64,000 nucleotides of DNA from Candidatus Latescibacterota bacterium (GCA_965203175.1 OZ241867.1:2592001-2656000), one strand, 5' to 3'. Shown: positions 7,526 to 23,188, counted from the stretch's first letter. Notes: generated from the sequence alone by a model not told the origin. Program-made: numbers and translations.

Positions 7526-7574
7526 GGTCTCCTCCTTTTTTGCTACTAATAAAGGTCGGCGCGTGGATTGGAAC

Positions 7575-7619
7575 AAAAAAGCGGGGAGCTAGCGGACGAA
7601 AAGTCCACCAGCTCCCCGC
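7575..7619 (-). terminator. Intrinsic terminator after the small HTH gene
   Basis: GCGGGGAGCT...AGCTCCCCGC stem followed by TTTTTT on minus strand. Confidence 0.8.
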
Positions 7620-8569: not shown

Positions 8570-8890
8570 ATGTATTCGATTGGTTTAGCCATGCGGCTGC
8601 GACCCAATGCGTACGCCGAGTACAAACAGGCCCACGACGACCTGTGGCCCGAAATCGCCGACAGCATGACCGACAACGAGGTCAGCATGGCCATCTACCG
8701 CTTGGACGAATACCTCATCATCCACGCGGTCGCCCCCACCGAGGAAGACTGGCTCAAGAGCCGTCAAGTGCCCATCCTAGAAGAGTGGTACGACTATATG
8801 GCCCAGTTGTTGGAGACCGACGCCGAAGGGGAGATCATCTTCGAGGAGCTGCCTGAAGCCTTTGCCTTCGGCATGTTCAAGGAAGCGTGA
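8570..8890 (+). CDS. rhaM: L-rhamnose mutarotase family protein
   Basis: MRLRPNAYAEYKQAHDDLWPEI..WYDYMAQLLET pattern; AAGGAG RBS. Confidence 0.75.
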   Translation: MYSIGLAMRLRPNAYAEYKQAHDDLWPEIADSMTDNEVSMAIYRLDEYLIIHAVAPTEEDWLKSRQVPILEEWYDYMAQLLETDAEGEIIFEELPEAFAFGMFKEA

Positions 8891-8893
8891 ACG

Positions 8894-9697
8894 CTAGGCC
8901 GCTTCCACCGGGTTTTGCAGTCGGCCGATCTGGTCTATTTCCACGATTACCTCGTCGCCGGCGGTAAGCCATACAGGCGGTTTGCGCGCAAAACCCACGC
9001 CCTGCGGGGTGCCGGTGAGGATGACCGTGCCTGGCAGCAAAGTCGTATCTTCGCTGAGGAATTCGATCAGTTCGGCGACCGTGAAAATCATGTCGCCGGT
9101 GGTGTGGTCCTGCATGGTCGCGCCGTTGAGGATCGTGCGGATGCCGAGGGTTTGTGGGTCGGGGATTTCATCGGCTGTGACTAGCACCGGCCCCAAAGGG
9201 CAAAAGGTGTCAAAGCCCTTGCCGCGGATCCACTGGCCGCCACCGCCGTGGAGCTGCCACTTGCGGGCCGAGACGTCGTTGGCGCACGTGTATCCAAGCA
9301 CATAGCTGAGGGCATCGGCTCGCGCCACATTGCGGGCGGCCTTGCCGATCACCACCGCGAGCTCGCACTCGTAGTCAACTTCCGGGCCGCGGCGACAGCA
9401 GGCTGGCAGCAGGATCGGGTCGCCCGGGCCGCAGACCGCGCTCGTGGGCTTGGCAAAGACGACGGGCTGCTCGGGCGGCTCGAGGCCGGATTCGGCCGCG
9501 TGCTCGCGGTAGTTTAACCCAATGCAGAAAATGTTGGTCGGATCGAGCGGGGCGAGCAGTCTTTTGACGGCCACCTGTTCGCCCGTGGGCGCTAGTTCTG
9601 CGAAGAGATCGCCGGCGAGTACGGAGGCTTGGCCCCCCTCGGCTTCGAGGCCCCAACGGACGGCGTCGTCAGCGTCGATAAAGCGGATGATGCGCAT
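8894..9697 (-). CDS. Fumarylacetoacetate hydrolase (FAH) family protein
   Basis: CIGLNYREHAAE, VDYECELAVVIG, NDVSARKWQ, GKGFDTFCPLGP, LTGTPQGVG. Confidence 0.95.
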   Translation of the reverse strand: MRIIRFIDADDAVRWGLEAEGGQASVLAGDLFAELAPTGEQVAVKRLLAPLDPTNIFCIGLNYREHAAESGLEPPEQPVVFAKPTSAVCGPGDPILLPACCRRGPEVDYECELAVVIGKAARNVARADALSYVLGYTCANDVSARKWQLHGGGGQWIRGKGFDTFCPLGPVLVTADEIPDPQTLGIRTILNGATMQDHTTGDMIFTVAELIEFLSEDTTLLPGTVILTGTPQGVGFARKPPVWLTAGDEVIVEIDQIGRLQNPVEAA

Positions 9698-9731
9698 GTT
9701 TTTCTCCTTTGTTTTTCCACCATTTGCACAA

Positions 9732-9795
9732 ACCTTAAGGCAGGGCTAGCAGCCCGTCAAATGACCTTGACGCTCAGAGTGGGGCCGCCTATTTT
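9732..9795. promoter_or_regulatory. Back-to-back sigma70-like promoters for the FAH gene and the BMC operon
   Basis: Plus: TTGACG(9767)-N17-TATTTT(9790); minus: TTGACG(9760)-N17-TAAGGT(9737). Confidence 0.55.
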
Positions 9796-9836
9796 CCCCA
9801 TTCTTAAAATATTAGATCCAACGCGAGGAAAAAAGC

Positions 9837-11249
9837 GTGTCCCAAAACGTCAGCGAAGAACACGTACGCAAAATAGTCGAAGAAGTGGTGCAGCGCGTCG
9901 TCAGCGGCGGAGACGGCAGCGGGAGTGGGGACACCGGTGTCTTCGCGACGGTTGACGCGGCCGTCCAAGGCGCTATTCGCGCCCAGCAGCAGTTGGTGGC
10001 CTTGTCACTGGAGGAGCGCAAAAAGATCGTCGAGGCCCTCCGGCAGACGGCGCACGTCCACGCCGAGGAATTTTCGCGGCGGGCCTTGGCCGAGACGGGC
10101 ATGGGGCGGTTGGAAGACAAAATCATCAAGCACCAAGTCGCGGCCGACACGACGCCCGGCGTCGAAGACCTAGAGGCCACTTCGTGGACTGGTGACCACG
10201 GGCTGACCGTGGTTGAAATGGCTCCTTACGGGGTCATCGGCGCGGTCACCCCATCGACCCATCCCGTGCCGACGATGGTCAACAACGCCATTTGCATTGT
10301 CGCCGCGGGCAACTCGGTCGTCTTCAACGTGCATCCGGCGGGCAGAAAGGTCTCCATGTTCGCGGTGGGCTTGATCAATCAGGCCATCGTCGCAGTTGGC
10401 GGACCGGCCAACTTGGTGACCGCGGTCGAAACGCCGACCATTGAGACGGCCAGCGAATTGTTCAATCACCCAGATATCCGCCTGCTGCTGGTCACAGGCG
10501 GGCCAGGCGTGGCCAAGGCCGCGATGGGTAGCCCCAAAAAGGCCATCGTCGCCGGCCCGGGCAATCCGCCGGTGGTCGTCGATGAAACGGCCGATTTGGC
10601 CAAGGCCGCGCGCGACATCATCGACGGGGGAGGCTTTGACAACAACATTCTCTGCATCGGCGAGAAGCAGGTCTTTGCCGTCACTTCCATTGCCGACGAG
10701 CTCAAGCGGCTGATGGTCCAATACAATGCGTATGAACTCGACACGCGGCAGATCGAGGCGCTCGCACAGGTGGCCTTTGTCGAAGGGCCGGACGGGCATC
10801 TCGTAGCCAACCGCGAATTGGTGGGGCGCGACGCCGCCGTGTTGGGCGAGCGCATCGGCCTCCGGCTCGACTCGTCGCTGCGCATGCTCATTGGCGAGAC
10901 CGACGCCAACCACGTCTTCGTGCGCGAGGAGCAGATGATGCCTTTTCTGCCGATCGTGCGGATGCCCAACGTCGACCAAGCCATCCGCGAGGCCGTCATC
11001 TCCGAGCACGGCTACGGGCACACGGCCGTGATCCATTCGCGCAACATCGAAAACATGCACAACATGGCCTGCGCCGTGGATACCACCATTTTCGTCAAGA
11101 ACGGTCCTTCCTACGCCGGGGTTGGCTTGGGCGGCGAGGGGTTTGGGACGTACTCGATTGCCGGGCCTACGGGCGAGGGGCTGACGTCGCCGCGCACCTT
11201 TACCCGCCAGCGCCGCTGCGCTCTCGTGGACTACTTCCGCATCACCTGA
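9837..11249 (+). CDS. CoA-acylating aldehyde dehydrogenase (PduP/EutE family) with N-terminal encapsulation peptide
   Basis: APYGVIGAVTPSTHP, TGGPGV, AGPGNPPVVVDETAD, FDNNILCIGEK, GPTGEGLTSPRTFTRQRRC; N-terminus SEEHVRKIVEEVVQRV. Confidence 0.95.
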   Translation: MSQNVSEEHVRKIVEEVVQRVVSGGDGSGSGDTGVFATVDAAVQGAIRAQQQLVALSLEERKKIVEALRQTAHVHAEEFSRRALAETGMGRLEDKIIKHQVAADTTPGVEDLEATSWTGDHGLTVVEMAPYGVIGAVTPSTHPVPTMVNNAICIVAAGNSVVFNVHPAGRKVSMFAVGLINQAIVAVGGPANLVTAVETPTIETASELFNHPDIRLLLVTGGPGVAKAAMGSPKKAIVAGPGNPPVVVDETADLAKAARDIIDGGGFDNNILCIGEKQVFAVTSIADELKRLMVQYNAYELDTRQIEALAQVAFVEGPDGHLVANRELVGRDAAVLGERIGLRLDSSLRMLIGETDANHVFVREEQMMPFLPIVRMPNVDQAIREAVISEHGYGHTAVIHSRNIENMHNMACAVDTTIFVKNGPSYAGVGLGGEGFGTYSIAGPTGEGLTSPRTFTRQRRCALVDYFRIT

Positions 11250-11563
11250 TGCTCTTGGGCCAAGTCAAAGGGCATCTGGTTTCCACGGCCAAGGTCCCGA
11301 GCCTGCACGGCAAGAAGCTCTTAGTCGTCGAAATCGCGTCGGTGCGCGAGCACGGTCTGGTGCTGACAGGGCGGGATATGGTTTGCATCGACGCGGTGCA
11401 AGCGGGCAAGGGCGAGTTGGTGATTTTGGTGCAGGGCAGTTCGTCGCGGATCGCCCCGAACTTGGGCGATGTGCCGACCGACGCGGTAATCGTCGGGATT
11501 GTCGATTCGCTACAGGCTATGGGTAAGGACTTCGACTGTCGGCAACTGAGCCGCGAAGGGTAG
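11249..11563 (+). CDS. BMC vertex protein (BMC-P, EutN/CcmL family)
   Basis: MLLGQVKGHLVSTAK..CIDAVQAGKGELVILVQGSSSR..DAVIVGIVD. Confidence 0.95.
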   Translation: MLLGQVKGHLVSTAKVPSLHGKKLLVVEIASVREHGLVLTGRDMVCIDAVQAGKGELVILVQGSSSRIAPNLGDVPTDAVIVGIVDSLQAMGKDFDCRQLSREG

Positions 11564-11566
11564 GCG

Positions 11567-12247
11567 ATGAACGTTGCACCAGCGGCTGGATTGGACCGCA
11601 AGCAGATTGAGGCGCTGGTGCGTCGGGTGGTGTACGATCACCTGCCCGATGCTCAGCTAGAGCAGGCACCCTCAGCTCCGAGGCTGGTCGTCAATATGTC
11701 CGCCCGCCACGTCCACCTCAATCGAGAGGCGCTGGACGCGCTCTTTGGCGCGGGTGCCGAGCTGACCGTGCAGAAGGCCCTGTACCAGGAAAGCGCTTTT
11801 GCCGCCGAGCAGACGGTGTCGGTTTTTGGCCCGCGCAAGCAGGTGATTCCCAGTGTGCGAATCCTCGGCCCATTGCGCGATTACAACCAGGTGGAGTTGG
11901 CCTTTACGGACGCCCGCTATTTGGGCATTGACGCGCCGGTGCGGCTCAGCGGCAACATCGAGGGGACGCCGGGCTGCTACTTGGTGGGGCCAGCTGGGGG
12001 GCTGGAATTGGATCACGGGGTGATTCGGGCCGCCCGCCACGTGCATTTAAACCCGGAAGAGGCCGCGTACTACGGAGTCGGGCCGGGAGACTTGCTGCGG
12101 CTGGTAGTAGAAGGCGATCAGGGCGGGGTGCTGGAAGGGTTGATCTGCCGAGTCAGCGAGCGCGAACGCCTAGAAGTTCACATCGATACGGACGAGGGCA
12201 ATGCGATTGATTTGGTACACGCCCGCAAGGTATATTTAGAGCGTTGA
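11567..12247 (+). CDS. pduL: PduL phosphotransacylase with N-terminal encapsulation peptide
   Basis: VNMSARHVHL, VRILGPLR, APVRLSG, RAARHVHL, HIDTDEGNA; N-terminus DRKQIEALVRRVVYDHL. Confidence 0.95.
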   Translation: MNVAPAAGLDRKQIEALVRRVVYDHLPDAQLEQAPSAPRLVVNMSARHVHLNREALDALFGAGAELTVQKALYQESAFAAEQTVSVFGPRKQVIPSVRILGPLRDYNQVELAFTDARYLGIDAPVRLSGNIEGTPGCYLVGPAGGLELDHGVIRAARHVHLNPEEAAYYGVGPGDLLRLVVEGDQGGVLEGLICRVSERERLEVHIDTDEGNAIDLVHARKVYLER

Positions 12248-12285
12248 AACGCAAAAATCCGCACAATTACTTCAGGAGGTAAGGG

Positions 12286-12846
12286 ATGTCGGATGCAATA
12301 GGCATGGTAGAAACCGTGGGGCTAGTCGGGGTCGTCGAGGCCGGCGACGCCATGGCCAAGGCCGCTAGCGTACAGCTTTTGGGCTGGGACCGAGTCGGCT
12401 CTGGCTTGGTGACTGTGTTTTGCGCGGGCGATGTGGCGGCCGTCAAGTCGGCCGTGGATGCTGGCTCGACTGCTGCTGCCAAGGTCGGGGAGGTGCATTC
12501 GGTCCACGTGATTCCCCGCCCGCACAGCGAACTGACGACCGTCGTGCCCGAACGCGGCGACAGCGGCGACAGCGATGGCCGCGTCCGCGCCTTGGGTCTT
12601 ATTGAGACGAAGGGGTCCATCGGCGTGATCGAAGCGGCCGACGCCATGAGCAAGGCCGCCAATGTGGAGGTCGTCAAGCTGCAGGACATCGGCGGCGGGT
12701 ACATCACCGTCATAGTTAGTGGCGACGTCGGCTCGGTGCAGGCTTCGGTCAGCGCCGGTGCCGAGGCGGCCGAGCGCGTGGGCGAGCTCGTATCGCAACA
12801 CGTGATTCCCCGCCCGCACGACGATCTCGTCGCGCTGTATTTGTAG
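12286..12846 (+). CDS. Tandem BMC shell protein (two PduA-like domains)
   Basis: Two copies of A(I/L)G(M/L)xET.G..A.DAM.KAA..GDV..V..HVIPRPH. Confidence 0.93.
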   Translation: MSDAIGMVETVGLVGVVEAGDAMAKAASVQLLGWDRVGSGLVTVFCAGDVAAVKSAVDAGSTAAAKVGEVHSVHVIPRPHSELTTVVPERGDSGDSDGRVRALGLIETKGSIGVIEAADAMSKAANVEVVKLQDIGGGYITVIVSGDVGSVQASVSAGAEAAERVGELVSQHVIPRPHDDLVALYL

Positions 12847-12858
12847 AGGAGACAAATA

Positions 12859-13122
12859 ATGAAAGCATTGGGTATGGTCGAGACTCGCGGTTTGGTCTGC
12901 GTCGTCGAAGCCCTCGACGCCATGTTGAAGACCGCGGACGTGAGCTATGCGGGCCAAAAGCGCGTGGGTAGCGGCCTAATCGCCGTGCTGGTCGAAGGCG
13001 ACGTAGCGGCTGTCAAAGCGGCCGTAGATGCGGGAGCGCAAGCCGCCCAGCGCATCGGCGAGCTGCGCAGCGTCCACGTGATTCCCCGTCCAACTGAGGG
13101 ACTGACAGACCACCTTGGTTAG
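12859..13122 (+). CDS. BMC-H hexamer shell protein
   Basis: [42 protein letters not shown]. Confidence 0.96.
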
Positions 13123-13126
13123 CTAG

Positions 13127-13573
13127 GTGACCGAGGCTTTGCACATCGACGCTCCGGTCGTCACCGGCGATTTGCTCGGGCGCGAGCACAAGGGCGAGCG
13201 GACGCTCAGCGTGTCCCCCAGCGCCATCTTGACGCCGACGGCTTGGGACTACATCCGCCAGCACCGCTTGCAGCTAAGTCGCGGCGAGGCCGTTGCCGCT
13301 GCCGAGGCCGTTGCGGACGCGGGCCGGTGCGAGCATCCCGACCGCGCCTGCGGCTGCGAGCACGAGGAATTTGGCTCGGGGTACGTCGAGCCAGCGCACT
13401 GCGGCGATTGCGCCGTCCACGAGCGCAAGAAGGCGGGCGACCCCGAGGCGAATTGTGAGGGTTGCAATCGCTACAAGACGCTTTTGCAACAAATCGAAAA
13501 GGGCCAAGCCTCCGATCCAGAAGCCTTAATTGAGCAGATCACCGAGCTAGTAATTCACCGGCTGGCGGACTAA
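13127..13573 (+). CDS. Cys-rich BMC-associated protein with EutQ-N-like domain and C-terminal encapsulation peptide
   Basis: VVTGD..ILTPTAWDYIR N-domain; seven Cys including two CxxC; C-terminus DPEALIEQITELVIHRL. Confidence 0.75.
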   Translation: MTEALHIDAPVVTGDLLGREHKGERTLSVSPSAILTPTAWDYIRQHRLQLSRGEAVAAAEAVADAGRCEHPDRACGCEHEEFGSGYVEPAHCGDCAVHERKKAGDPEANCEGCNRYKTLLQQIEKGQASDPEALIEQITELVIHRLAD

Positions 13574-13576
13574 GCT

Positions 13577-14161
13577 ATGGCGGGCGACCCGGCAGTCGGC
13601 ATGATCGAGGTGCAGGGCGTGGCCGCTGCCATTGTGGGTGCGGATGCGGCCTGCAAGGCTGCGGAAGTGAAGCTCGCAGGTTGGTCCTCAATCGGCGGTT
13701 ATACCACGGCTTTTTTTACTGGGTCGATCAGCGATGTAGCCGCGGCGCTGCGAAGCGGCGAGGAAGCGGCCCGCGAAATAATAGAACACGTAGTGGCCGC
13801 GCCTTTACTCCAACCCGCCGCTGCTTGCAGTCATTTCATCGATTTTCCGGTCCGGTCCGACAGCGACTTTCCCGCCGGTGCCTTGGGATTGGTCGAGACG
13901 CGCGGCTATGGGGCTCACATTCACACGAATGATCAGATGGTTAAGACGGCTGCCGTCGCGGTCGTCAACGTGCTGACGGTCCACGACCGCGTGGTGTGTT
14001 CGCTGGTCTTGGGAGACGTTGGGGCTGTCAAAGAAGCCATAGCCGTCGCGCAAAAGTTGCTCGGGGACTGCGAGCACTTGTTGGGCACGGCCCTGGTTCC
14101 GCAGCCGCGGCCCGAGGTCTTGGCTGCATACGCCGCGCCGATGGGAGGTGGTGGTGTCTAG
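13577..14161 (+). CDS. Divergent tandem BMC shell protein (two domains)
   Basis: AVGMIEVQG..DAACKAA..; ALGLVETRG..DQMVKTA..GDVGAVKEAI. Confidence 0.88.
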   Translation: MAGDPAVGMIEVQGVAAAIVGADAACKAAEVKLAGWSSIGGYTTAFFTGSISDVAAALRSGEEAAREIIEHVVAAPLLQPAAACSHFIDFPVRSDSDFPAGALGLVETRGYGAHIHTNDQMVKTAAVAVVNVLTVHDRVVCSLVLGDVGAVKEAIAVAQKLLGDCEHLLGTALVPQPRPEVLAAYAAPMGGGGV

Positions 14162-15302
14162 CGGGGCGATTGGCATGCTGGAGACGCGCGGGATGGCGTC
14201 GCTGATGGCTTCTACCGATGCCATGCTCAAGGCCGCTGAAGTACAACTCTGCGGTCGGCACGGTATTGGCTCGGGTTGGCTCACTGCGGTAATCGCCGGT
14301 CAAGTAGCTGATGTGGAGGCGGCCATTCGCGTTGGCGAGGTCGAGGCGAACCGCACCGGTGAACTGATCGGCGCGCAAGTGGTGCCACGGCCAGACGCGC
14401 GCGCCATGGACGCCATGCCCCACGCAACCGGTCTTGGTGCCGAACAGGTACAGCCGCAGGCAATTGGCTTATTGGAGACGCAGGGCCTGACGCCGCTGGT
14501 GGCCGGTGCCGACGCCATGCTCAAGGCCGCCCAAGTGGAGCTAGGGGGTTGGGCCTTCATCGGGGGCGCGCTGTGTCACGCGCCGATCTTTGGCGATGTA
14601 GCGGCCGTGCAGACGGCGTTAGAAGTGGGCCGGCAAGCAGCCGAGCGGATTGGCACCGTGTACGCGACTCTTGTTTTGCCCCAGCCCAGCGAGGGGCTAG
14701 GTCCTCTGTTGCCGCCCGCGCCAGCGGTCGAGCTGCGCTCCACCGGTGCCTTGGGCCTCATAGAGACCATTGGTTACGCCTCGGTCGTGGGCAGTGCGGA
14801 CGCCATGCTCAAGGCCGCGGATGTCCAAATCGAGCGCTTGAGCATTGGTAGCGGCGGGCGGATTACCGCGCTGGCTACCGGCCATCTCGACGACGTGCAG
14901 GCCGCAGTGCGCGCCGGTGCCGAGGCAGCCACGGCTTTGGGGGAGTTCGACGCCTCGGCCGTAGTCTCGCGGCCCGATCCCGCGCTCGTCGCCCGTTTTG
15001 CCACTGCGGCCGAGGGCCTTGGCGCGGGTGCGCGGCAGGCCATGGGGCTGATTGAGACGCGCAGTACCGTGGCCTTGGTGCGAGCCGTCGATCGGATGCT
15101 CAAGGCCGCAGCCGTCGAATACGAGGGAGCCTATAAGGTGGGGTACTACTTGACGGCCGCGGTCGTGCGCGGCGATGTGGGTGCCGTGCAGGTCGCGATA
15201 GATGCGGGTCGGAAGGAGGCTGTTGAACACGGGGAACTGGTTTCGGCCTACGCAATTCCGCAGCTCTACAGCGGCCTCGAAGGCCGCCTGCCGCACGTTT
15301 AG
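14148..15302 (+). CDS. BMC shell protein with four tandem BMC domains
   Basis: Four AxGxxET..D(A/R)MLKAA..G.V..V units in one uninterrupted 384-aa ORF; GGAGG RBS favours GTG at 14154. Confidence 0.9.
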   Translation: MVVSSGAIGMLETRGMASLMASTDAMLKAAEVQLCGRHGIGSGWLTAVIAGQVADVEAAIRVGEVEANRTGELIGAQVVPRPDARAMDAMPHATGLGAEQVQPQAIGLLETQGLTPLVAGADAMLKAAQVELGGWAFIGGALCHAPIFGDVAAVQTALEVGRQAAERIGTVYATLVLPQPSEGLGPLLPPAPAVELRSTGALGLIETIGYASVVGSADAMLKAADVQIERLSIGSGGRITALATGHLDDVQAAVRAGAEAATALGEFDASAVVSRPDPALVARFATAAEGLGAGARQAMGLIETRSTVALVRAVDRMLKAAAVEYEGAYKVGYYLTAAVVRGDVGAVQVAIDAGRKEAVEHGELVSAYAIPQLYSGLEGRLPHV

Positions 15303-15316
15303 CGAGGACGCGAAAA

Positions 15317-16498
15317 ATGATTCGGATTGACGATGCAGTAATTACCGCGCAGACCTTGGAGGGCCGCCTAGCTGGCGAACGGCAGGTCGAGATCGGCCCG
15401 GGGTCTAAACTGACGCCCTCGGCACAGGACTTTTTGCACGCCCAAGGCATTGAAATCGTGCGCCGGGAAGCCAGCGGCCAAGCTCCTCCAACGACAACAC
15501 TGGCACCAGCACCGGCACCGGCGGGTCCTCGCGCGGCCGAACGCCAGCCATTTGCTGGCATCTTCTGCCCCAATGTCGTCCTTTTCGACAGTCAGAACGA
15601 GATCAACCACGCCGAGATGGAGCGCTACATCAACTGGTTAATCGAGGTTGGGATCCACGGGCTGTACCCCAACGCCAGCACTGGCGAGTTCGCGCGCCTG
15701 TCGCAGAAGGAGCGCCAAGACGTGGTGCGGCTGGTCTGCGAGGTCAACAAGGGACGCGTACCCGTACTGGCCGGAGCCAGCGAGGCCAGCTTGCGCGACG
15801 TGCTCAAGATGGCCGAATACTACGCCTCGCTCGGCGTGGATGCCATTGCACTGATGCCCCCCTATTACTACGAAATTTCCACTGAGAGCCTCTTTGAGTA
15901 CTTCGCCGAAATCGCCGGGGAATCGCCGCTGGATATCCTGCTGTGCAATATCCCGCAATTTACCCAAGAGCTGTCGATAGATTTGCTGGAGCGGCTCTTG
16001 CCCTACGATCGGATTTTCGGCATCAAGGACTCCAGCCGCGACCTGCCGAGGCTGCTCAACACCATGAACTGCCTGCGCCAACAGCGCCCCGACTACGTGG
16101 TGATGACTGGTTGCGAGGAGATCGTGTTTCCCTCGGTGCTCATGGGAGCCAACGGAGGCACCATCGCCACTTCGGGTATCGTCCCGGAAGTCATTGTCGA
16201 GCTTTATGAAAAGGCCAAAAGCGATGACATTGAGCGGGCCCGCGAACTGCAATACCGCATCCTCGATCTCATCAACTTGATGCTCCTTGGGGTCAATTTC
16301 CCAGAGGGCTTCAAGACTGGCGTGGCGGCCCGTGGCTTTGACGTCGGCCCAGCGCGCGCGTCGAGCAGCGCGTCCGAACAGGAGTACCTGATCAAGCTAG
16401 AGGCCCAAATCAACTGCGTCCTCGCGGATATGGGCTATCCAGTCCAAGGCCCCCGCGCCTGCCCGGCGACCAACCTGCCGCCGATCGTCGGTCGCTAG
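15317..16498 (+). CDS. DHDPS/NAL-family class I aldolase with N-terminal BMC-associated domain
   Basis: NASTGEF, MPPYYY, LCNIP, IFGIKDSS; N-terminal VITAQ..KLTPSAQDFL domain plus Pro/Ala/Thr linker. Confidence 0.9.
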   Translation: MIRIDDAVITAQTLEGRLAGERQVEIGPGSKLTPSAQDFLHAQGIEIVRREASGQAPPTTTLAPAPAPAGPRAAERQPFAGIFCPNVVLFDSQNEINHAEMERYINWLIEVGIHGLYPNASTGEFARLSQKERQDVVRLVCEVNKGRVPVLAGASEASLRDVLKMAEYYASLGVDAIALMPPYYYEISTESLFEYFAEIAGESPLDILLCNIPQFTQELSIDLLERLLPYDRIFGIKDSSRDLPRLLNTMNCLRQQRPDYVVMTGCEEIVFPSVLMGANGGTIATSGIVPEVIVELYEKAKSDDIERARELQYRILDLINLMLLGVNFPEGFKTGVAARGFDVGPARASSSASEQEYLIKLEAQINCVLADMGYPVQGPRACPATNLPPIVGR

Positions 16499-17575
16499 AT
16501 GGCCCTGACGGGCGCACGCGTGTTGGTGGTCGGGGCCGGTATCATCGGCCGCTCGACGGCCTATTTCCTCGCCCGGCAAGGCGCGCAGGTCGTCCTGCTC
16601 GACGAGGGGATCCCTACAGGCTCGCCCACGAGCCGGGCCTCGTTGGGCGTCCTCACCCACTGCAACGGCGGCGACAATCCCTACGCCCAGCTTTTCCGCG
16701 ACGGTCACGCTTTGCACGCCCGGCTGGCCCGCGACCTAGCCGAAGACGTGGGCGCAGACGTGGGTTGGCGTCCCCTCGGCGGTATCGATCTTTTTGCCGA
16801 CCCATCCCAGCTAGAGGAGGTATGGCGCTTCAACCACGAGCGCGGCTGTCGGGTCGAGCGGCTCGACGAGCGGGCCTTGCGCGATGCGGAGCCGGGGTTG
16901 GACGACGGTGGTGAGGGGCTGTATTTTGCCGATGATCATCGGGTGGATCCCCTCAAGTTGGGCGCGGCGCTTTGGGCGGCGGCCGTACAGCAGGGTGCGT
17001 CTGCTGCTTGGGGTGCGCGCGTCTGGCGCATTGCCCAAGAAGGCGAGACCGTCGAGGTCGCCACCAGTCGCGAAATTTACCGCGCCGACTTTGCGGTGTT
17101 GGCGGCTGGGGCGTGGACCGGTGGCTTGGCAGCGCAGCTCGGTGCCCAAGTTGCGCTGCGTCCGGTGCGGGGCCAACAAGCGCGTTTTGTAGGTGCCCCA
17201 TTGCGTCACTTAGTGAGGATAAACGGACGCCACTTCATTCCAGACGGCGGCGAAACCATCGTGGGAGCGACGTCGGAGGAGGTCGGCTTTCGGTTGGAGA
17301 CGACCCGTGCAGCCGCTGAGCAATTTGCCTCGGAGGTGCGCTCTGCACTGGGGAACTGCTTGCCGCTGTCGCGCCAGCAGGCCGGTCTGCGGCCCAAGCC
17401 CCGAGGCGGGCGTCCGCTCATCGGTCCGCTGACGGATGCGCCGCGCGTTTTCGTGGCCTCTGGGCACTACAAAAACGGCGTCTTGCTAGGCCCGATTACC
17501 GGCCAAATCGTCGCCCGTTGGATCGCCGAGGGAACCCCGGGGCGCGATATGCGCCGCTTCGCACCCGAGCGTTGA
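16499..17575 (+). CDS. FAD-dependent oxidoreductase (glycine oxidase/D-amino acid oxidase family)
   Basis: VVGAGIIG, LAAGAW, PVRGQ, AGLRP, GHYKNGVLLGPITG. Confidence 0.9.
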   Translation: MALTGARVLVVGAGIIGRSTAYFLARQGAQVVLLDEGIPTGSPTSRASLGVLTHCNGGDNPYAQLFRDGHALHARLARDLAEDVGADVGWRPLGGIDLFADPSQLEEVWRFNHERGCRVERLDERALRDAEPGLDDGGEGLYFADDHRVDPLKLGAALWAAAVQQGASAAWGARVWRIAQEGETVEVATSREIYRADFAVLAAGAWTGGLAAQLGAQVALRPVRGQQARFVGAPLRHLVRINGRHFIPDGGETIVGATSEEVGFRLETTRAAAEQFASEVRSALGNCLPLSRQQAGLRPKPRGGRPLIGPLTDAPRVFVASGHYKNGVLLGPITGQIVARWIAEGTPGRDMRRFAPER

Positions 17576-17608
17576 ATTCACTGCCACTAAACACAGTTGA
17601 GGTTAAAC

Positions 17609-18550
17609 ATGCCATTGCAAAAAGAAGACCTACTCGCCGTGCTAAACTCGGTTACCTCCATTCCGGTGGTCCCTTTTCGCGGCGGGCAAATCGACTACGA
17701 GGCCCACGCCAAGAACATCAACTACTTGATGGAGAACAATCACTTGGACGGCGCCCGGCCCCGGGTGATTGGCATCGCCGGCACCAGCTTGATCCACCAC
17801 ATTAGCGCGGATGAGCAAGTGCGGTTGTTGGGCTTTACCGGCCAGCAGATGGGGGGACGCGGGGTGCTGATGTCCGGGCTTGCTCCCAATCCGGTTGGGG
17901 ATGCCGAGCGGTTGATCGAGCGGGAGGCCGCGCTCGAATATCCCCCGGATGTCTATCTCGTCATGCCGCTTACGGGCGTGGCCAGTCCAGAGGGCATTTT
18001 CGCGTACTACGTGGATTTTGCCGAGCGGTTGGGGCGTTCGTGCGGGGCCAAGTTGCTCTACTACCTGCGCAACCAAGCCGAGCGCGAGATAGCCGTGCGG
18101 CTGATGAACGAGTCCGAGCACTTCGTGGGGTTGAAGATCGGCACTACGGTTGATGATGTTGAGCCGATTGTCGCGGGTGTGGAAGAGGGGGCTGCGTTGG
18201 TGATTTGGGGCGTGGGGGATCGCTCGACTGGGCCGGCTGAGCGCGGCACCAAGGGGCATACGTCGGGGATTAACGTGGCCTTTGCCCGCGCTTCAGACGA
18301 GATCAACAACGCCCAGCGTCGAGGTGATTTTGCGACCTCGCAGCAGATTGAAGACAAGCTTGCGGCTCTAGAGGGAATTCGCTTCCGCGATGGCCGTATG
18401 TACAACTACTCGGCTGTGGTTGAGGCCATGCACTTGGGGGGGTTCAGCGATGTGGATGGCGGCGAGGGTGGTCCGTTCAATCCTCGGGTGCCTAAGGAAG
18501 TGGCAGAGGAAGTGGCTGCGGCCATCGCCGATATTGTGGACTATCACTAG
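17609..18550 (+). CDS. Second, divergent DHDPS-family enzyme (lyase/dehydratase-like)
   Basis: IPVVPFRGGQIDYEA, LLYYLRN, FVGLKIG (Schiff-base Lys position); start refined to MPLQK. Confidence 0.75.
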   Translation: MPLQKEDLLAVLNSVTSIPVVPFRGGQIDYEAHAKNINYLMENNHLDGARPRVIGIAGTSLIHHISADEQVRLLGFTGQQMGGRGVLMSGLAPNPVGDAERLIEREAALEYPPDVYLVMPLTGVASPEGIFAYYVDFAERLGRSCGAKLLYYLRNQAEREIAVRLMNESEHFVGLKIGTTVDDVEPIVAGVEEGAALVIWGVGDRSTGPAERGTKGHTSGINVAFARASDEINNAQRRGDFATSQQIEDKLAALEGIRFRDGRMYNYSAVVEAMHLGGFSDVDGGEGGPFNPRVPKEVAEEVAAAIADIVDYH

Positions 18551-18849: not shown

Positions 18850-19012
18850 GCGAAAGCAAGATAGCGCAGAATGGGCATAGCACAAATGAACGCCAGCGAA
18901 GCCGATACCAGAGGCGAGCTCATTTGCGATGCTCTAGCGCTTGCAATAGGTGCAAGGAGGCTATTGACGCTATGCCATCGGCCATGCTGCGGCGAGTTTT
19001 TGCGAGAAAGGT

Positions 19013-19924
19013 ATGATGGGTAATTTCTCGCCACAAACAATTGAAGCTCTGGCGATCACTATTACTGGTGGTTCTTTCTCAGATTCCACCAGTCCTGTTC
19101 CTAGCAAATATCGTGCTGGTTGGGAATTGGAACAGTTCTTCAGAGGGATCGAGGTATCGTTTCAAATAGATAAAAGGTCTCGTGTCTCTGCTGTTCGCGA
19201 GTGCTTGGAGGACTTGAATATTAGCAATCCCACCAAGATAAAAGAGGCCATTCAAGCTATATGTGATCCACGTGAATACCTTGATGAAGAAGACGATCTC
19301 AGGGAAATCGTGGTTTATCTAAATAAACGGTTGAAATTCGACGGGTTTGAGCTTTGGGAGGAGGGAGGGTTCTACAGATTAGTATCAACCAATATAGTAG
19401 GAGCTCCCGCCAATGATCTCCAAGCCACTATTAATCTAACTGACTATGACTCGGTTAAGACGGACTTTGAGAGAGCCGTAAATGCCATCGAAAAAGATCC
19501 AGAAGACGCTATAACTGCTGCCTGTTCCATTGTTGAGAGCGTTTGTAAGTGCATCCTATATCAGATGAAGAAATCTTACCCCAAAAAGCAGGACATCAAG
19601 GGTTTGGTCACTGAAGTAGGAAAGCACCTGAATCTCTCACCGGCACGAAGTGACCTCCCTTCTGAGATATCTGGCGATATCAAGCAAATTTTGTCTGGCT
19701 TGATTAGCGTCACTTCAGGTATCGGTGCACTGAGAACACATAGTGGAGACGCGCACGGACGTGGCAGAAAGAGAGTACCTGTGGATGCTCGTATCGCTCG
19801 TCTAGCAATCCACGCTGCCAGCACTATATCGCTCTTCTATATCGAGACATGGAACCGCATTACGGCGGTAAAAAAAGATAATGATAAAGAGGCGAGAAAA
19901 AGCGATCCAAACAGCGATAACTAG
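19013..19924 (+). CDS. Abortive infection family protein (Abi_C C-terminal domain)
   Basis: DPEDAITAACSIVESVCKCIL..KQILSGL..GIGALRTHSGDAHG (RxxxxxxH); AT-richer than flanks. Confidence 0.8.
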   Translation: MMGNFSPQTIEALAITITGGSFSDSTSPVPSKYRAGWELEQFFRGIEVSFQIDKRSRVSAVRECLEDLNISNPTKIKEAIQAICDPREYLDEEDDLREIVVYLNKRLKFDGFELWEEGGFYRLVSTNIVGAPANDLQATINLTDYDSVKTDFERAVNAIEKDPEDAITAACSIVESVCKCILYQMKKSYPKKQDIKGLVTEVGKHLNLSPARSDLPSEISGDIKQILSGLISVTSGIGALRTHSGDAHGRGRKRVPVDARIARLAIHAASTISLFYIETWNRITAVKKDNDKEARKSDPNSDN

Positions 19925-19942
19925 CAGATAATCAGTTCAGGT

Positions 19943-20170
19943 TCACGGCAAATAATCTTGGAAATGCTCAAGATGTTCATCGTCATCGGCAAGGATCATC
20001 AACTTGCCCTTTCCAAGGCCAAACTGACGCGCCCGATTCTGAGTACTACTTTTTACTAACCGCGCAACAGTCTCGCTGCCGCGTGTCAACTCGATTTCCT
20101 CGTCCGGTTGTAGTTGATCAATCAATTCATTAAGCCGCGAACTCGCTTCTTTGATCGAGATCGTCGTCAT
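19943..20170 (-). CDS. Phd/YefM-family antitoxin, no cognate toxin adjacent
   Basis: MTTISIKEASSRLNELID..EEIELTR..VARLV..RQFGLGKG. Confidence 0.8.
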   Translation of the reverse strand: MTTISIKEASSRLNELIDQLQPDEEIELTRGSETVARLVKSSTQNRARQFGLGKGKLMILADDDEHLEHFQDYLP

Positions 20171-20200
20171 AGTGGATATTCCAAGAGTGTAAATATACGA

Positions 20201-20506
20201 TTAGACAGGCTCATAACGCTGGACGCTGATCTCATTTGCACGGGCACGCATCTGCGAGGCGTCATACCAAGCCTGCATCCTCAGCAGCATGTCCATACCC
20301 ACGCCGAATGCCTTCTCGATACGCAGTGCCATCTCAGGTGATAGCGCGGCGTGGCCGTTTAGTAAATCCGAAAGCGTTGCCCGCCGAACCCCTAGAATCT
20401 CAGCCGCTTTTGTCACGTTCAGATCCAACTCCTCGATGATCTCGGTGCGAATGAAATCACCTGGATGCGAAGGGGTCATGTTCACTTTGATGCCGTCGGT
20501 AGCCAT
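20201..20506 (-). CDS. higA: HigA antitoxin (XRE HTH)
   Basis: PSHPGDFIRTE..LNVTKAAEILGVRRATLSDLLNG..SPEMALRIEKAFG..LRMQAWYD; TAATG coupling with higB stop. Confidence 0.9.
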   Translation of the reverse strand: MATDGIKVNMTPSHPGDFIRTEIIEELDLNVTKAAEILGVRRATLSDLLNGHAALSPEMALRIEKAFGVGMDMLLRMQAWYDASQMRARANEISVQRYEPV

Positions 20507-20740
20507 TAGTGGTAATCCTCCAAGTTTAAGCGGTCGATATAGCCGTCTTCTTCTGCAAAGGTGATCCGCCAATTTCCGGACACGAGGTGCATCGGCAATG
20601 AATCTGTCTAATCCCTCTGCCAAAATCAGTGCCGTCAGGATCTTACGCACTCGATCAACCAAGTTGTGTTGCAGGAACCGAGGATTATCGTCTTCAATCA
20701 ATCGGCGCAATCCTCGGTGGTGGATGGAGCGAATGATCAT
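20506..20740 (-). pseudogene. higB: HigB toxin with internal deletion and frameshift
   Basis: N-terminus MIIRSIHHRGLRRL in one frame; C-terminus VSGNWRITF..LNLEDYH* in another; central LH.L.G..W segment absent. Confidence 0.85.
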
Positions 20741-20751
20741 GTTCTAAGTGT

Positions 20752-20764
20752 ACGGTAATACCGT
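20752..20764. promoter_or_regulatory. Probable HigA operator
   Basis: ACGGTA-A-TACCGT palindrome just upstream of higB. Confidence 0.5.
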
Positions 20765-20877
20765 TCATTTTACAAGTTTCTCCTCGCGCCGAAAGATCAT
20801 CTCTGGCACTCACCAACGGAAACCCTCAGATTTGCTTATGGATCAGGCTGTTGTCGGCACATCGGTTAGCACCGCAT

Positions 20878-21000
20878 CTTGGATCTGATCAATACCACTG
20901 TCACCTTTCCCGCGATTGGGTGGCCTGTTGGTCTTACGTGAAAACTTCAAAAACCATCGAGGTCTATTATGCAGGCAGTCGTGAAAACGCCCCGTATTGA
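20878..21000 (+). pseudogene. 3' remnant of a RelE-like toxin gene
   Basis: Manual translation LGSDQYHCHLSRDWVACW..IEVYYAGSRENAPY*, overlapping the HTH gene start; no recognisable N-terminal half upstream. Confidence 0.7.
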
Positions 21001-21337: not shown

Positions 21338-21429
21338 AGACCAGAAGGGCCAGACAAACTTGCTGATAGTAGATGCCTACGCGCTAGTCGCCTTTTGGCA
21401 ACAGTAGAGTACAATCCTGCGCGACGACA

Positions 21430-23019: not shown

Positions 23020-23188
23020 AGCCAAGTCCCGGTTTTGAGGACACTTCTTAATGAGTCGCGCAGCTAGTATAATGTCAATAGTGCCACTCGCGTCGCGGGA
23101 CTAGGCTGCCACAGCCGCTGCGCCGCTTGCCCTCGTTGGTATCGGCAGTTTAATTTGCTCTTACCACCTAACCCAATGCGCCGCGCTC

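What the first reader, a model, noticed from the sequence alone, without database searches (positions are those of the whole stretch)
8570..18550. Metabolosome of unassigned type with DHDPS-family aldolase as probable signature enzyme
Seen: acylating aldehyde dehydrogenase and PduL (both with encapsulation peptides), five shell genes, two DHDPS-family enzymes and a DAO-family oxidase in one tight operon; no diol dehydratase, ethanolamine lyase, glycyl radical enzyme, class II aldolase, alcohol dehydrogenase or acyl kinase. An FAH gene shares a divergent promoter and rhaM is adjacent. Established: DHDPS/NAL aldolases cleave 4-hydroxy-2-oxo acids to pyruvate plus an aldehyde; metabolosomes trap aldehydes and convert them to acyl-CoA then acyl-phosphate. 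Inference: either (a) non-phosphorylative deoxy-sugar catabolism (2-keto-3-deoxy-rhamnonate or fuconate to lactaldehyde), or (b) the oxidase deaminates a hydroxylated amino acid to a 4-hydroxy-2-oxo acid that is cleaved inside the shell.
Basis: partly seen in the sequence, partly recalled or inferred. Interest (0 to 1): 0.85.

Follow-up and report, generated by a model that had tools for sequence, protein, structure and literature searches.

The report
Microcompartment operon with an aldolase cargo
This is the main gene cluster of a bacterial protein-shelled organelle of a catalogued but functionally unsolved type, and comparison with relatives points to a sugar-acid aldolase in it as a likely source of the toxic aldehyde that the organelle handles.

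Summary
Window 9837-18550 is one tight plus-strand operon: acylating aldehyde dehydrogenase, BMC-P, PduL, BMC-T, BMC-H, an unnoticed 148-aa protein, a second BMC-T, a four-domain BMC protein, DHDPS1, a ThiO-like oxidase and a divergent DHDPS2.

The type is catalogued. Shell orthologues in syntenic loci carry locus tags that Sutter et al. 2021 list as MUF2, a metabolosome of unknown function. An earlier scan note reached the same view on another genome.

DHDPS1 is the best-supported cargo:
- It has a conserved 50-residue N-terminal domain.
- It lies next to the BMC-T/four-domain pair in all 77 close DHDPS1 loci where the contig allows.
- In 18 loci this trio stands alone; in the five such genomes checked, the core lies in a PVM-like locus elsewhere.
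- Its Verrucomicrobial clade-mates carry C-terminal targeting helices beside BMC-T, fucose-permease, lactonase-like and sugar-acid dehydratase genes.

The genome also has a targeting-tagged class II aldolase in a satellite locus, so DHDPS1 is not the only aldehyde source.

I favour deoxy-sugar-acid cleavage to lactaldehyde (moderate confidence). The oxidase and DHDPS2 remain unexplained.

The parts
8570..8890 (+). rhaM-family (L-rhamnose mutarotase-like) gene next to the locus. Present only in close relatives.
   Evidence: PF05336 E 2.6e-14. TIGR02625 scores 40 bits, far below its cut-off of 99.6. Found in 18 of the 80 loci, all with at least 84% DHDPS1 identity.
8894..9697 (-). FAH-family enzyme, divergently transcribed from the operon. 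Candidate 2,4-diketo-3-deoxy-sugar-acid hydrolase; not assigned.
   Evidence: PF01557 E 1.5e-76. Best NCBIfam model is 2,4-didehydro-3-deoxy-L-rhamnonate hydrolase at 224.6 bits, against a cut-off of 500. PDB: HpcE 225 bits, L-2,4-diketo-3-deoxyrhamnonate hydrolase 8gsr 186 bits. Present in 34 of the 50 full loci.
9837..11249 (+). Acylating (EutE/PduP-type) aldehyde dehydrogenase with an N-terminal encapsulation-peptide-like helix.
   Evidence: NF011927 scores 648 bits, above its cut-off of 403. The Pfam domain starts at residue 37; residues about 6-22 form an amphipathic stretch followed by a Gly/Ser linker. It is the only match in the genome to a BMC-type AldDH query.
11249..11563 (+). BMC-P (pentamer, vertex) shell protein.
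   Evidence: PF03319 E 7.8e-24.
11567..12247 (+). PduL-type phosphotransacylase with an N-terminal encapsulation-peptide-like helix.
   Evidence: PF06130 E 3.9e-65, with the domain starting at residue 42. NF011652 scores 221.8 bits, above its cut-off of 209.
12286..12846 (+). BMC-T shell protein, 186 aa, two BMC domains.
   Evidence: PF00936, two stretches, E 8.8e-53.
12859..13122 (+). BMC-H shell protein, 87 aa.
   Evidence: PF00936 E 3.6e-26.
13127..13573 (+). 148-aa protein of no Pfam family. It has an N-terminal domain like that of DHDPS1, a region with six conserved cysteines, and a C-terminal amphipathic helix of encapsulation-peptide type. Candidate adaptor or metal-binding lumen protein.
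   Evidence: No Pfam hit even at E 10. 55 orthologues aligned. In the model the N-domain has pLDDT 80-94, the C-terminal helix spans residues 131-147, and the Cys region has low confidence. The profile finds this domain only here and in DHDPS1 in the genome.
13577..14161 (+). BMC-T shell protein, 194 aa. Orthologue of the MUF2 'Ts hazel' clade and always paired with the next gene.
   Evidence: PF00936, two stretches. Orthologues found in 69 loci. Identity to the MUF2 locus tags shown.
14148..15302 (+). Shell protein with four tandem BMC domains in a single ORF.
   Evidence: PF00936, four stretches, E 6.4e-78. Conserved as one ORF of 379-419 aa in 61 loci. Each domain has its own invariant motifs.
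15317..16498 (+). DHDPS1, a class I (Schiff-base) pyruvate aldolase-type enzyme. It has a 50-residue N-terminal beta-alpha-beta-alpha-beta domain and a Pro/Ala linker. Best-supported cargo and aldehyde source.
   Evidence: PF00701 covers residues 79-365. 30-sequence alignment. Nearest solved relatives are YagE, a KDG aldolase and uncharacterised DHDPS-like proteins. Synteny, tree, model.
16499..17575 (+). FAD oxidoreductase of the DAO family, closest to glycine oxidase ThiO. No terminal extension. Role unresolved.
   Evidence: PF01266 E 6.7e-57. TIGR02352 scores 173 bits, below its cut-off of 250.8. Aligns end to end with glycine oxidases, with the 'GLRP' motif kept.
17597..18550 (+). DHDPS2, a very divergent DHDPS-family protein that keeps a lysine in the 'G-x-K-x-G-T' position. 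No added targeting helix. Role unresolved.
   Evidence: PF00701 E 2.3e-9. Family of about 313-aa proteins. Alignment. Present in 45 of the 50 full loci. Absent from 5 of 5 satellite-type genomes with this query.

Best explanation
The window holds the main locus of a fragmented metabolosome of the catalogued MUF2 type.

Shown:
- The locus has an AldDH plus PduL core and five shell genes.
- The rest of the shell and a second cargo are encoded in satellites: a BMC-P triplet, two BMC-H genes, and a class II aldolase with a C-terminal targeting-type helix.

Inferred, well supported: DHDPS1 is a lumen enzyme. It belongs to a clade of class I pyruvate aldolases that are recurrently tied to shell genes.

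Inferred mechanism:
1. A 2-keto-3-deoxy sugar acid enters the shell, perhaps through the tile made by the 194-aa BMC-T and the four-domain protein that always accompany DHDPS1. The most likely substrate is a 6-deoxy acid such as L-2-keto-3-deoxy-fuconate or -rhamnonate.
2. DHDPS1 cleaves it to pyruvate plus an aldehyde (L-lactaldehyde).
3. AldDH makes the acyl-CoA and NADH.
4. PduL makes the acyl-phosphate and recycles CoA.
5. An acetate-kinase-type enzyme encoded elsewhere harvests ATP.

The tagged class II aldolase would feed the same core, as in PVM-type organelles. The oxidase and DHDPS2 lack targeting signals. I read them as accessory enzymes of unknown substrate.
For: 1. Type. The BMC-T orthologue of L033 is NCBI 'CME20_01425', and the cluster of L051's orthologue holds 'CME13_09850'. 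Both tags are labelled MUF2 (main) in the shell-protein tree of Sutter 2021. L033 has the full gene order.

2. Linkage of DHDPS1 to shell genes. Of 80 loci, 50 have AldDH, DHDPS1 and DAO on the same stretch. Another 18 have only BMC-T194, the four-domain protein and DHDPS1. In 5 of 5 such genomes the AldDH (58-60% identical) lies elsewhere, in the three loci fetched in the order PduL, BMC-H, BMC-P, AldDH, BMC-P, plus BMC-P, class II aldolase and acetate kinase in the one scanned with Pfam.

3. Targeting. The N-terminal 50 residues and the linker are conserved in all 30 aligned homologues. A profile of this domain finds 915 representative proteins. Four inspected members of a class of about 230-270 aa carry it behind a canonical N-terminal targeting helix.

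4. Sister clade. 11 of 401 sampled Verrucomicrobiota genomes have a homologue at E <= 1e-60. All 6 inspected end in a targeting-type amphipathic helix. Three are followed by a BMC-T. One follows a FucP fragment and an amidohydrolase whose only NCBIfam hit is L-fucono-1,5-lactonase (below cut-off). One closes an operon of dehydratase, symporter, dehydratase and aldolase. The two groups form one clade (SH-aLRT 99), apart from the 13 other DHDPS paralogues of this genome (quick tree).

5. Physiology. The genome gives 77 matches to a sugar-acid dehydratase model and has 14 DHDPS-family genes. No RhaA or FucI C-domain was found. A rhaM-family gene and an FAH lie beside the operon.

6. Pathway precedent. 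Cleavage of L-KDF to pyruvate and L-lactaldehyde by an aldolase is described in the introduction of PMC11199699 (passages read).
Against: - No substrate is shown. DHDPS1 is below the cut-off of every NCBIfam model, with N-acetylneuraminate lyase scoring best.
- The deoxy-sugar link rests on one Verrucomicrobial locus (L140), on below-cut-off matches, and on a rhaM-family gene seen only in close relatives.
- In the window and 9 close relatives, the tyrosine of the conserved 'YNIP' motif is cysteine. This is the catalytic Tyr of the family by recall, so this copy may be altered or weakened.
- The oxidase and DHDPS2 are co-conserved with the operon (DAO in 50 of 50 by selection, DHDPS2 in 45 of 50) and this reading does not explain them.
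- The oxidase looks like an amino-acid oxidase.
- Neighbours of the satellite trio are scattered in this genome, so they give no pathway evidence.
- No alcohol dehydrogenase for NAD+ recycling is in the locus.
- The N-terminal domain has no shown binding partner.
Confidence: 0.5

Rival explanations
1. Amino-acid route. The ThiO-like oxidase oxidises a D- or hydroxy-amino acid or a glycine-type substrate to an imino/2-oxo acid. One or both DHDPS enzymes then convert it to an aldehyde that the AldDH/PduL core consumes. One example is a hydroxyproline-type route to 2-oxoglutarate semialdehyde; another is a 4-hydroxy-2-oxo acid cleaved to pyruvate plus aldehyde.
For: - The oxidase aligns over its whole length with glycine oxidases and keeps the 'GLRP' arginine. 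That this Arg binds the substrate carboxylate is recalled, not tested.
- DAO and DHDPS2 follow DHDPS1 in 45-50 of the 50 full loci.
- A DAO-family dehydrogenase plus a DHDPS-family deaminase plus an aldehyde dehydrogenase is the known bacterial D-hydroxyproline route (recalled; not checked in a paper here).
- An M9 collagenase gene lies at 51825-54974 in the window.
Against: - The shell-shell-DHDPS1 trio exists in 18 loci without DAO or DHDPS2.
- In 5 of 5 such genomes DHDPS2 was not found, and the best DAO matches are only 33-35% identical.
- No Pro_racemase-family gene (hydroxyproline epimerase) was found in this one-contig genome, which has a completeness estimate of 93%.
- DAO and DHDPS2 have no terminal extension.
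- DHDPS1 is nearer to aldolases than to KdgD-type dehydratases.
Confidence: 0.2
2. The organelle is in essence a PVM-like compartment whose only signature enzyme is the tagged class II aldolase of the satellite locus. DHDPS1, DAO and DHDPS2 are cytosolic enzymes that merely share the operon.
For: - The class II aldolase (240 aa) ends in a canonical targeting-type helix and lies beside a BMC-H gene.
- The same BMC-H, membrane-protein and aldolase trio is present in 4 of 5 other full-type genomes.
- The helix is kept in the orthologues printed.
- There is only one BMC-type AldDH and one PduL in the genome.
Against: - It does not explain the conserved N-terminal domain and linker of DHDPS1.
- It does not explain why DHDPS1 travels with two shell genes as a free-standing trio.
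- It does not explain why its Verrucomicrobial clade-mates carry targeting-type helices and a BMC-T neighbour.
- RhaA and FucI, which supply the usual class II aldolase substrates, were not found.
Confidence: 0.12
3. Same mechanism, different substrate. DHDPS1 cleaves another 2-keto-3-deoxy acid (pentonates to glycolaldehyde, KDG/KDGal to glyceraldehyde, or a broader set), and the organelle is a general aldehyde trap for the genome's many sugar-acid pathways.
For: - The nearest solved relatives include YagE and a KDG/KDPG aldolase.
- The genome has 77 dehydratase-model matches and 14 DHDPS genes.
- The Luteolibacter homologue lies behind two dehydratases of unassigned specificity.
Against: - The one informative neighbourhood (L140) points to fucose: FucP, plus an amidohydrolase whose only hit is the fuconolactonase model.
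- The rhaM-family gene is next to the locus.
- The partner class II aldolase of PVM-type organelles yields lactaldehyde (Sutter 2021 text).
Confidence: 0.2

Closest known systems
MUF2 metabolosome type (Sutter, Melnicki, Schulz, Woyke, Kerfeld 2021, Nat Commun 12:3809; PMC8217296)
   Same: - Shell orthologues of syntenic loci bear the very locus tags listed as MUF2.
- Main and satellite forms exist in both.
- Gemmatimonadota hosts are shared.
- An AldDH is present.
   Different: Nothing contradicts membership. The paper's main text gives no function and says there is no obvious signature enzyme. Its locus descriptions (Supplementary Data 2) could not be read here, and PF00701 is not in its HMM name table.
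PVM / PVM-like metabolosomes (class II aldolase signature; fucose/rhamnose to lactaldehyde)
   Same: - Both have an AldDH plus PduL core, a BMC-P triplet and a tagged class II aldolase.
- An acetate kinase is present.
- In some genomes the DHDPS1 trio is a satellite of such a locus.
   Different: - Here the class II aldolase is in a satellite locus.
- The main locus adds two BMC-T genes, a four-domain shell protein, DHDPS1, an oxidase and DHDPS2.
- RhaA and FucI were not found in the genome.
'EUT module' satellites (EutABC + EutL) described by Sutter 2021 as add-ons that extend a main BMC to a second substrate
   Same: A signature-type enzyme travels with its own BMC-T-type shell proteins, either as a separate locus or fused into a main locus (passage read).
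   Different: The enzyme is of the DHDPS family. The shell pair is a BMC-T plus a four-domain protein. Targeting is by an N-terminal folded domain, not by a known peptide.
Non-phosphorylating L-fucose/L-rhamnose pathway, route 1 (L-KDF aldolase FucH; Watanabe 2020, as cited in PMC11199699)
   Same: - The proposed chemistry is the same: a class I aldolase cleaves a 2-keto-3-deoxy-6-deoxyhexonate to pyruvate and L-lactaldehyde.
- Mutarotase-family and FAH-family genes lie next to the locus.
- A lactonase-like gene and FucP lie beside a clade-mate.
   Different: No encapsulation is described for FucH in what I read. Sequence relatedness of DHDPS1 to FucH was not tested, because the paper is not held and no reference sequence was at hand.
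SPU metabolosomes (DeoC-type class I aldolase as signature enzyme)
   Same: A Schiff-base aldolase releases an aldehyde inside a metabolosome (Sutter 2021 text).
   Different: The aldolase family differs (PF01791 versus PF00701), as do the substrates (sugar phosphates).

Membership tests
Metabolosome (catabolic BMC) | BMC-H/T (PF00936) and BMC-P (PF03319) shell genes clustered with enzymes | tested here: met
   Four PF00936 genes and one PF03319 gene lie within 11249-15302.
Metabolosome (catabolic BMC) | Acylating aldehyde dehydrogenase and phosphotransacylase core carrying encapsulation peptides | tested here: met
   NF011927 and NF011652 both score above their cut-offs. N-terminal helix and linker are seen in the sequence. 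Encapsulation itself is not testable here.
Metabolosome (catabolic BMC) | Alcohol dehydrogenase for NAD+ recycling in the locus | tested here: not met
   No ADH family appears among the 13 genes of 8570-18550. The genome was not searched for a tagged ADH.
MUF2 type (Sutter 2021) | Shell proteins fall in the type's clades (BMC-Ts 'hazel') | tested here: met
   The orthologue in syntenic L033 is CME20_01425, and the cluster of L051's orthologue holds CME13_09850. Both are labelled MUF2 (main). The window protein is 76% identical to that of L033. It was not scored with the authors' HMMs.
MUF2 type (Sutter 2021) | Enzyme content as given in the authors' locus description (Supplementary Data 2) | not testable with these tools
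   That file is not readable here.
PVM / PVM-like type | Class II aldolase (PF00596) with a targeting peptide in the main locus, plus a BMC-P triplet | tested here: inconclusive
   Both exist in the genome but in satellite loci, not in the window.
DHDPS/NAL class I aldolase family (DHDPS1) | PF00701 fold with the Schiff-base lysine and 'GSTGE'-type and 'YNIP'-type motifs | tested here: inconclusive
   PF00701 E 1.2e-53. Lysine K237 is kept. The window has 'ASTGE' and 'CNIP', where 73 of 73 relatives have G and 64 of 73 have Y. The motif roles are recalled.
4-hydroxy-tetrahydrodipicolinate synthase (DapA) proper | Score above the TIGR00674 cut-off | tested here: not met
   DHDPS1 scores 142.8 bits and DHDPS2 26.3 bits, against a cut-off of 206. 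Another genome copy scores 313.7 bits on PF00701 and is the likelier DapA.
L-KDF/L-KDR aldolase | Sequence relatedness to a characterised enzyme and activity on KDF/KDR | not tested
   No reference sequence or model was available. Only context evidence exists.
Glycine oxidase ThiO (the DAO gene) | Score above the TIGR02352 cut-off | tested here: not met
   173.2 bits against a cut-off of 250.8. The full-length alignment to solved glycine oxidases is at E 1.5e-29.
Bacterial hydroxyproline pathway | 4-hydroxyproline 2-epimerase (Pro_racemase family) in the genome | tested here: not met
   PF05544 gives 0 matches in G000, which is one contig with a completeness estimate of 93%.

The most novel reading that the evidence does not exclude
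MUF2 uses a so far undescribed way of building and loading a compartment.

- A 50-residue folded domain replaces the classical peptide as the cargo tag. It is shared by DHDPS1 and by a cysteine-rich 148-aa protein that itself carries a classical targeting helix. The small protein would act as an adaptor, or both would dock on one dedicated tile.
- That tile would be a six-domain pseudohexamer made of one 194-aa BMC-T (two domains) and one four-domain protein. This would give a fully asymmetric pore for sugar acids.

The result would be a portable 'tile plus aldolase' module that turns a lactaldehyde organelle into one fed by non-phosphorylated deoxy-sugar acids.
Probability: 0.15. Interest if true: 0.8.

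Novelty: new member of a known kind. Interest (0 to 1): 0.55.

Why it matters
MUF2 is one of several catalogued microcompartment types with no assigned function. This work gives a concrete and cheap-to-test proposal: a DHDPS-family class I aldolase as encapsulated aldehyde source, sharing an AldDH/PduL core with a class II aldolase.

It would link bacterial organelles to the non-phosphorylating sugar-acid pathways that are greatly expanded in this genome and in other marine lineages. It would also add a new enzyme family, a possible new targeting domain and a four-domain shell protein to the parts list used in compartment engineering.

If the proposal is wrong, the operon remains an ordinary member of a catalogued type.

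Tried and rejected
- **Complex prediction** (DHDPS1 N-domain with the BMC-T and the four-domain protein) was not available. Nothing was folded, so binding is untested.
- **Fold search.** A Foldseek search of the 148-aa model against the PDB gave no match at E <= 0.001.
- **Pfam at E <= 10** found nothing for the 148-aa protein or the DHDPS1 N-terminus. My recollection that the 'LTP' motif resembles the Pfam Co_AT_N motif could not be confirmed. The only hint is a weak TIGR02536 match (E 2.3e-4).
- **MIC6.** I considered this type because its HMM table lists DAO, but its shell entry is from Desulfobacteraceae. I dropped it in favour of MUF2.
- **Neighbours of the satellite trio** (CehA-like hydrolase, PhyH, Zn-ADH, DapF, galactonate dehydratase, SDR) looked like a pathway. 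Their orthologues are scattered in this genome, so I did not use them.
- **Flanks of full loci** (HNH, Lon-substrate domain, DtxR-type repressor, ZnuA ABC system, LytB, QueC) are unrelated.
- **DHDPS2** was not found in 301 sampled Verrucomicrobiota at E <= 1e-30. The ESM Atlas gave only 'DHDPS family'.
- **The N-domain** searched against proteins of 216-688 aa hit only DHDPS proteins, 41 of 41.
- **RNA libraries.** Contigs of 3 of the 4 runs laid (three studies) cover 24-26 of 30 bins at 92-99% identity; the fourth gave only short pieces. These are relatives, no silent stretch was laid as a control, and contigs cannot show transcription, so I draw no conclusion on expression.
- **AldDH phylogeny against named BMC types** was not done, for lack of labelled reference sequences.
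- **Literature.** Searches for 'microcompartment' with 'DHDPS' (0 papers), the four-term search (0), 'microcompartment' with 'dihydrodipicolinate' (3 papers with unrelated titles, listing only), 'MUF2' (only the catalogue and its preprint) and phrases for four-domain BMC proteins (0) found no prior description.

Full report

Pfam and NCBIfam on the ORFs give:
- a rhaM-family gene (8570-8890, +);
- an FAH-family gene (8894-9697, -);
- then one tightly packed plus-strand series: acylating AldDH (9837-11249; NF011927 at 648 bits, cut-off 403), BMC-P (11249-11563), PduL (11567-12247), a 186-aa BMC-T, an 87-aa BMC-H, a 148-aa protein with no Pfam match (13127-13573), a 194-aa BMC-T, a 384-aa protein with four BMC domains (14148-15302), DHDPS1 (15317-16498), a DAO-family oxidase (16499-17575) and a very divergent DHDPS2 (17597-18550).

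AldDH and PduL each start with an amphipathic stretch and a flexible linker ahead of the catalytic domain.

**The rest of the organelle lies outside the window.** The genome is one contig of 6.58 Mb. It has further shell genes:
- BMC-H at 0.16 and 4.48 Mb;
- a BMC-P triplet at 3.69 Mb beside lytB.

At 4.48 Mb the order is BMC-H, a membrane protein, then a 240-aa class II aldolase. The last residues of that aldolase form a canonical targeting-type helix after a short linker. The same trio is present in 4 of 5 other genomes with the full operon, and the helix is kept in the orthologues printed.

A tblastn with a BMC-locus AldDH and PduL finds only the window's copies. An acetate kinase lies at 5.86 Mb. 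So 'no class II aldolase, no kinase' holds for the operon but not for the system.

**Conservation.** A profile of 30 DHDPS1 homologues fetched 80 loci from one-per-species genomes. They are mostly Latescibacterota and Gemmatimonadota by record title, plus one Handelsmanbacteria and one Planctomycetota MAG.

By tblastn the 80 loci divide as follows:
- 50 carry AldDH, BMC-P, PduL, the 148-aa gene, DHDPS1 and DAO in the window's order. DHDPS2 is present in 45 of these and FAH in 34.
- 7 are contig fragments with DHDPS1 plus DAO.
- 2 are fragments that end inside DHDPS1.
- 18 have only BMC-T194, the four-domain protein and DHDPS1. One of these is cut by a contig end and shows only the four-domain gene.
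- 3 lack this gene context: two show only a weaker DHDPS1 match (the Luteolibacter locus L089, discussed below, and a 31%-identical Glutamicibacter match) and one shows no qualifying match.

rhaM is present in 18 loci, all close relatives. The flanks of the full loci are unrelated housekeeping genes.

**The type is catalogued.** Exact look-up of the BMC-T194 orthologues shows that L033's protein is 'CME20_01425'. The 90% cluster of L051's protein contains 'CME13_09850'. Both tags appear in the BMC-Ts tree file of Sutter et al. 2021 as 'bmcType=MUF2 (main)', and other members are marked '(sat)' (supplement part read). L033 has the complete gene order.

The paper's main text lists MUF2 among types of unknown function that have an AldDH but no obvious signature enzyme (passages read). 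Its locus descriptions are in a file I could not read. PF00701 is not in its HMM name table.

A search for 'MUF2' finds only this paper and its preprint. I reached it independently here.

**DHDPS1 as cargo.** Four lines of evidence agree.

First, all 30 aligned homologues share an N-terminal block of about 50 residues and then a variable Pro/Ala-rich linker before the PF00701 domain. The AlphaFold model gives a small beta-alpha-beta-alpha-beta unit, a disordered linker (residues 50-78) and the barrel.

Second, the gene lies beside BMC-T194 and the four-domain protein in every locus of this family where the contig allows.

Third, in the 18 trio-only loci the rest of the organelle is elsewhere. 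In 5 of 5 such genomes an AldDH of 58-60% identity lies elsewhere in the genome. In the three such loci fetched the order is PduL, BMC-H, BMC-P, AldDH, BMC-P, and the one scanned with Pfam adds a further BMC-P, a class II aldolase and an acetate kinase, that is, a PVM-like main locus. This mirrors the 'EUT module' satellites that Sutter et al. read as add-ons bringing a second substrate and its own BMC-T (passage read).

Fourth, the catalytic domain has relatives in 11 of 401 sampled Verrucomicrobiota genomes (E <= 1e-60, 38-48% identity). I inspected six (L089, L135, L136, L139, L140, L142). All end in a linker plus an amphipathic helix of the classical targeting type, and three are followed at once by a 205-210-aa BMC-T. 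I did not inspect the other five.

In a quick maximum-likelihood tree the N-domain group and the Verrucomicrobial group form one clade (SH-aLRT 99), apart from the 13 other DHDPS-family genes of this genome. The careful search did not finish, and many paralogue branches are long.

Two earlier scan notes (e1-968587, e1-968589) describe DHDPS-type aldolases with a targeting-like tail beside a BMC-H gene in another lineage. I did not re-examine those.

**The N-terminal domain and the 148-aa protein.** The 148-aa family (55 orthologues) has three parts:
- the same kind of N-terminal domain (invariant T, TP and D positions shared with DHDPS1);
- a stretch with six conserved cysteines;
- a C-terminal amphipathic helix.

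The model is confident for the N-domain (pLDDT 80-94) and for the last helix, but not for the cysteine region.

In this genome a profile of the domain finds only these two proteins. The trio-only genomes have the domain only in DHDPS1. Against 1.84 billion representatives the profile finds 915 proteins at E <= 0.001. One hit of 1071 aa is a repetitive protein that I regard as spurious. Four inspected members of a class of about 230-270 aa carry the domain behind a canonical N-terminal targeting helix and a Pro/Ala linker.

The domain is therefore a widespread module of proteins that also bear compartment tags. Its partner is unknown. The complex prediction that could have tested docking was not available, and Foldseek found no solved look-alike.

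**What DHDPS1 does.** It keeps the Schiff-base lysine and the family motifs. It lacks a DapA-level score (142.8 bits, cut-off 206). Its nearest solved relatives are YagE, a KDG/KDPG aldolase and uncharacterised DHDPS-like proteins.

Context of its clade-mates:
- In the Luteolibacter locus the order is dehydratase (MR_MLE), sodium-solute symporter, dehydratase, aldolase.
- In L140 the order is a C-terminal fragment of an L-fucose:H+ symporter (TIGR00885, 186 bits for 180 residues), an Amidohydro_2 protein whose only NCBIfam hit is L-fucono-1,5-lactonase (127 bits, cut-off 400), the tagged aldolase and a BMC-T.

The window's own genome gives 77 matches to a sugar-acid dehydratase model and has 14 DHDPS-family genes. 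This resembles the enolase-superfamily expansion tied to non-phosphorylative fucose and rhamnose use in cultured SAR202 (PMC10444878; abstract and passages read). RhaA and the FucI C-domain were not found.

The non-phosphorylating fucose pathway includes a mutarotase, a lactonase, a dehydratase and then one of two ends. One is an aldolase giving pyruvate plus L-lactaldehyde. The other is a 4-dehydrogenase plus an FAH-family hydrolase (introduction of PMC11199699). A mutarotase-family gene and an FAH lie beside the operon. The FAH's best NCBIfam model is the rhamnonate-pathway hydrolase, though far below cut-off.

Lactaldehyde is also what the class II aldolase of PVM-type organelles releases (Sutter text). 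I therefore favour a 6-deoxy sugar acid as substrate and lactaldehyde as the trapped aldehyde. This rests on context, much of it below curated thresholds.

**What does not fit.** The oxidase aligns end to end with glycine oxidases and keeps the 'GLRP' motif. DHDPS2 keeps a lysine and a tyrosine in family positions but has an otherwise remodelled active site. Both follow DHDPS1 in nearly all full loci, and neither has an added terminal segment.

They are dispensable for the trio. DHDPS2 was not found in 5 of 5 trio-only genomes, and the best oxidase matches there are 33-35% identical. A hydroxyproline-type route is weakened by the lack of a Pro_racemase-family gene. A collagenase gene in the window keeps it in mind. 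I leave their role open.

In the window and nine close relatives the tyrosine of the 'YNIP' motif is cysteine, while other close relatives keep tyrosine. Its consequence is unknown.

**Verdict.**
- The locus is a member of a catalogued type, not an unassigned one.
- Option (a) is favoured over (b).
- The functional proposal, the folded N-terminal domain and the four-domain shell protein are not in print as far as my searches reach.

Noticed in passing
window 15944-15946 (DHDPS1 codon 210): The tyrosine of the conserved 'YNIP' motif is cysteine (TGC) in the window and in 9 of 73 orthologues, all 92-95% identical to it. Other close relatives keep tyrosine. The window also has A for an otherwise invariant G in the 'GSTGE' motif.
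   Followed up: partly
window 14148-15302: A single ORF with four tandem BMC domains, each with its own invariant motifs. It is conserved in 61 loci and always follows the 194-aa two-domain BMC-T. Two plus four domains would make one six-domain tile. No paper with phrases for four-domain BMC proteins was found.
   Followed up: partly
G000 4483110-4484940 (L111 7110-8940) and G000 3690136-3690934 (L112): These are satellite loci of the same organelle. One is BMC-H, a membrane protein and a class II aldolase with a C-terminal targeting-type helix, set among mreBC, HU and ychF genes. The other is a BMC-P triplet beside lytB.
   Followed up: yes
L139, L140, L142, L136, L135, L089 (Verrucomicrobiota): DHDPS1-clade aldolases with classical C-terminal targeting-type helices. 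Three are followed by a BMC-T. One follows FucP and a fuconolactonase-like gene. One lies in a dehydratase-symporter operon.
   Followed up: partly
P0375, P0357, P0371, P0383: A class of proteins of about 230-270 aa with this layout: N-terminal targeting-type helix, Pro/Ala linker, the same 50-residue domain as in DHDPS1, then a C-terminal domain of unknown family. There was no PDB sequence match for the one tried.
   Followed up: no
window 18900-23050: Abi_C-domain, HTH and PcfJ-like genes in a lower-GC stretch (0.52) lie between the conserved HNH gene and the Lon-substrate-domain gene, which are close together in most relatives. This is probably an inserted mobile or defence islet. A PcfJ-like gene is also seen in 13 related loci.
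   Followed up: partly
window 37999-46121: A low-GC stretch (down to 0.44) with an Eco57I-type restriction-modification fusion, an FRG/TPR protein, an AAA_15/AAA_21 ATPase and a DUF3226 protein. It looks like a defence island.
   Followed up: no
whole genome; window 31521-32660, 47271-48368, 55881-57197: The genome gives 77 matches to a sugar-acid dehydratase (enolase superfamily) model, three of them in the window. Some lie beside SDR genes and a second, unrelated DAO gene (49086-50234, 26% identical to the operon's).
   Followed up: partly
window 51825-54974 (-) and 4883-7576 (-): An M9 collagenase-family protein of 1049 aa, and an 897-aa protein joining an M28 peptidase domain to an aminoglycoside 3-N-acetyltransferase-family domain.
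   Followed up: no
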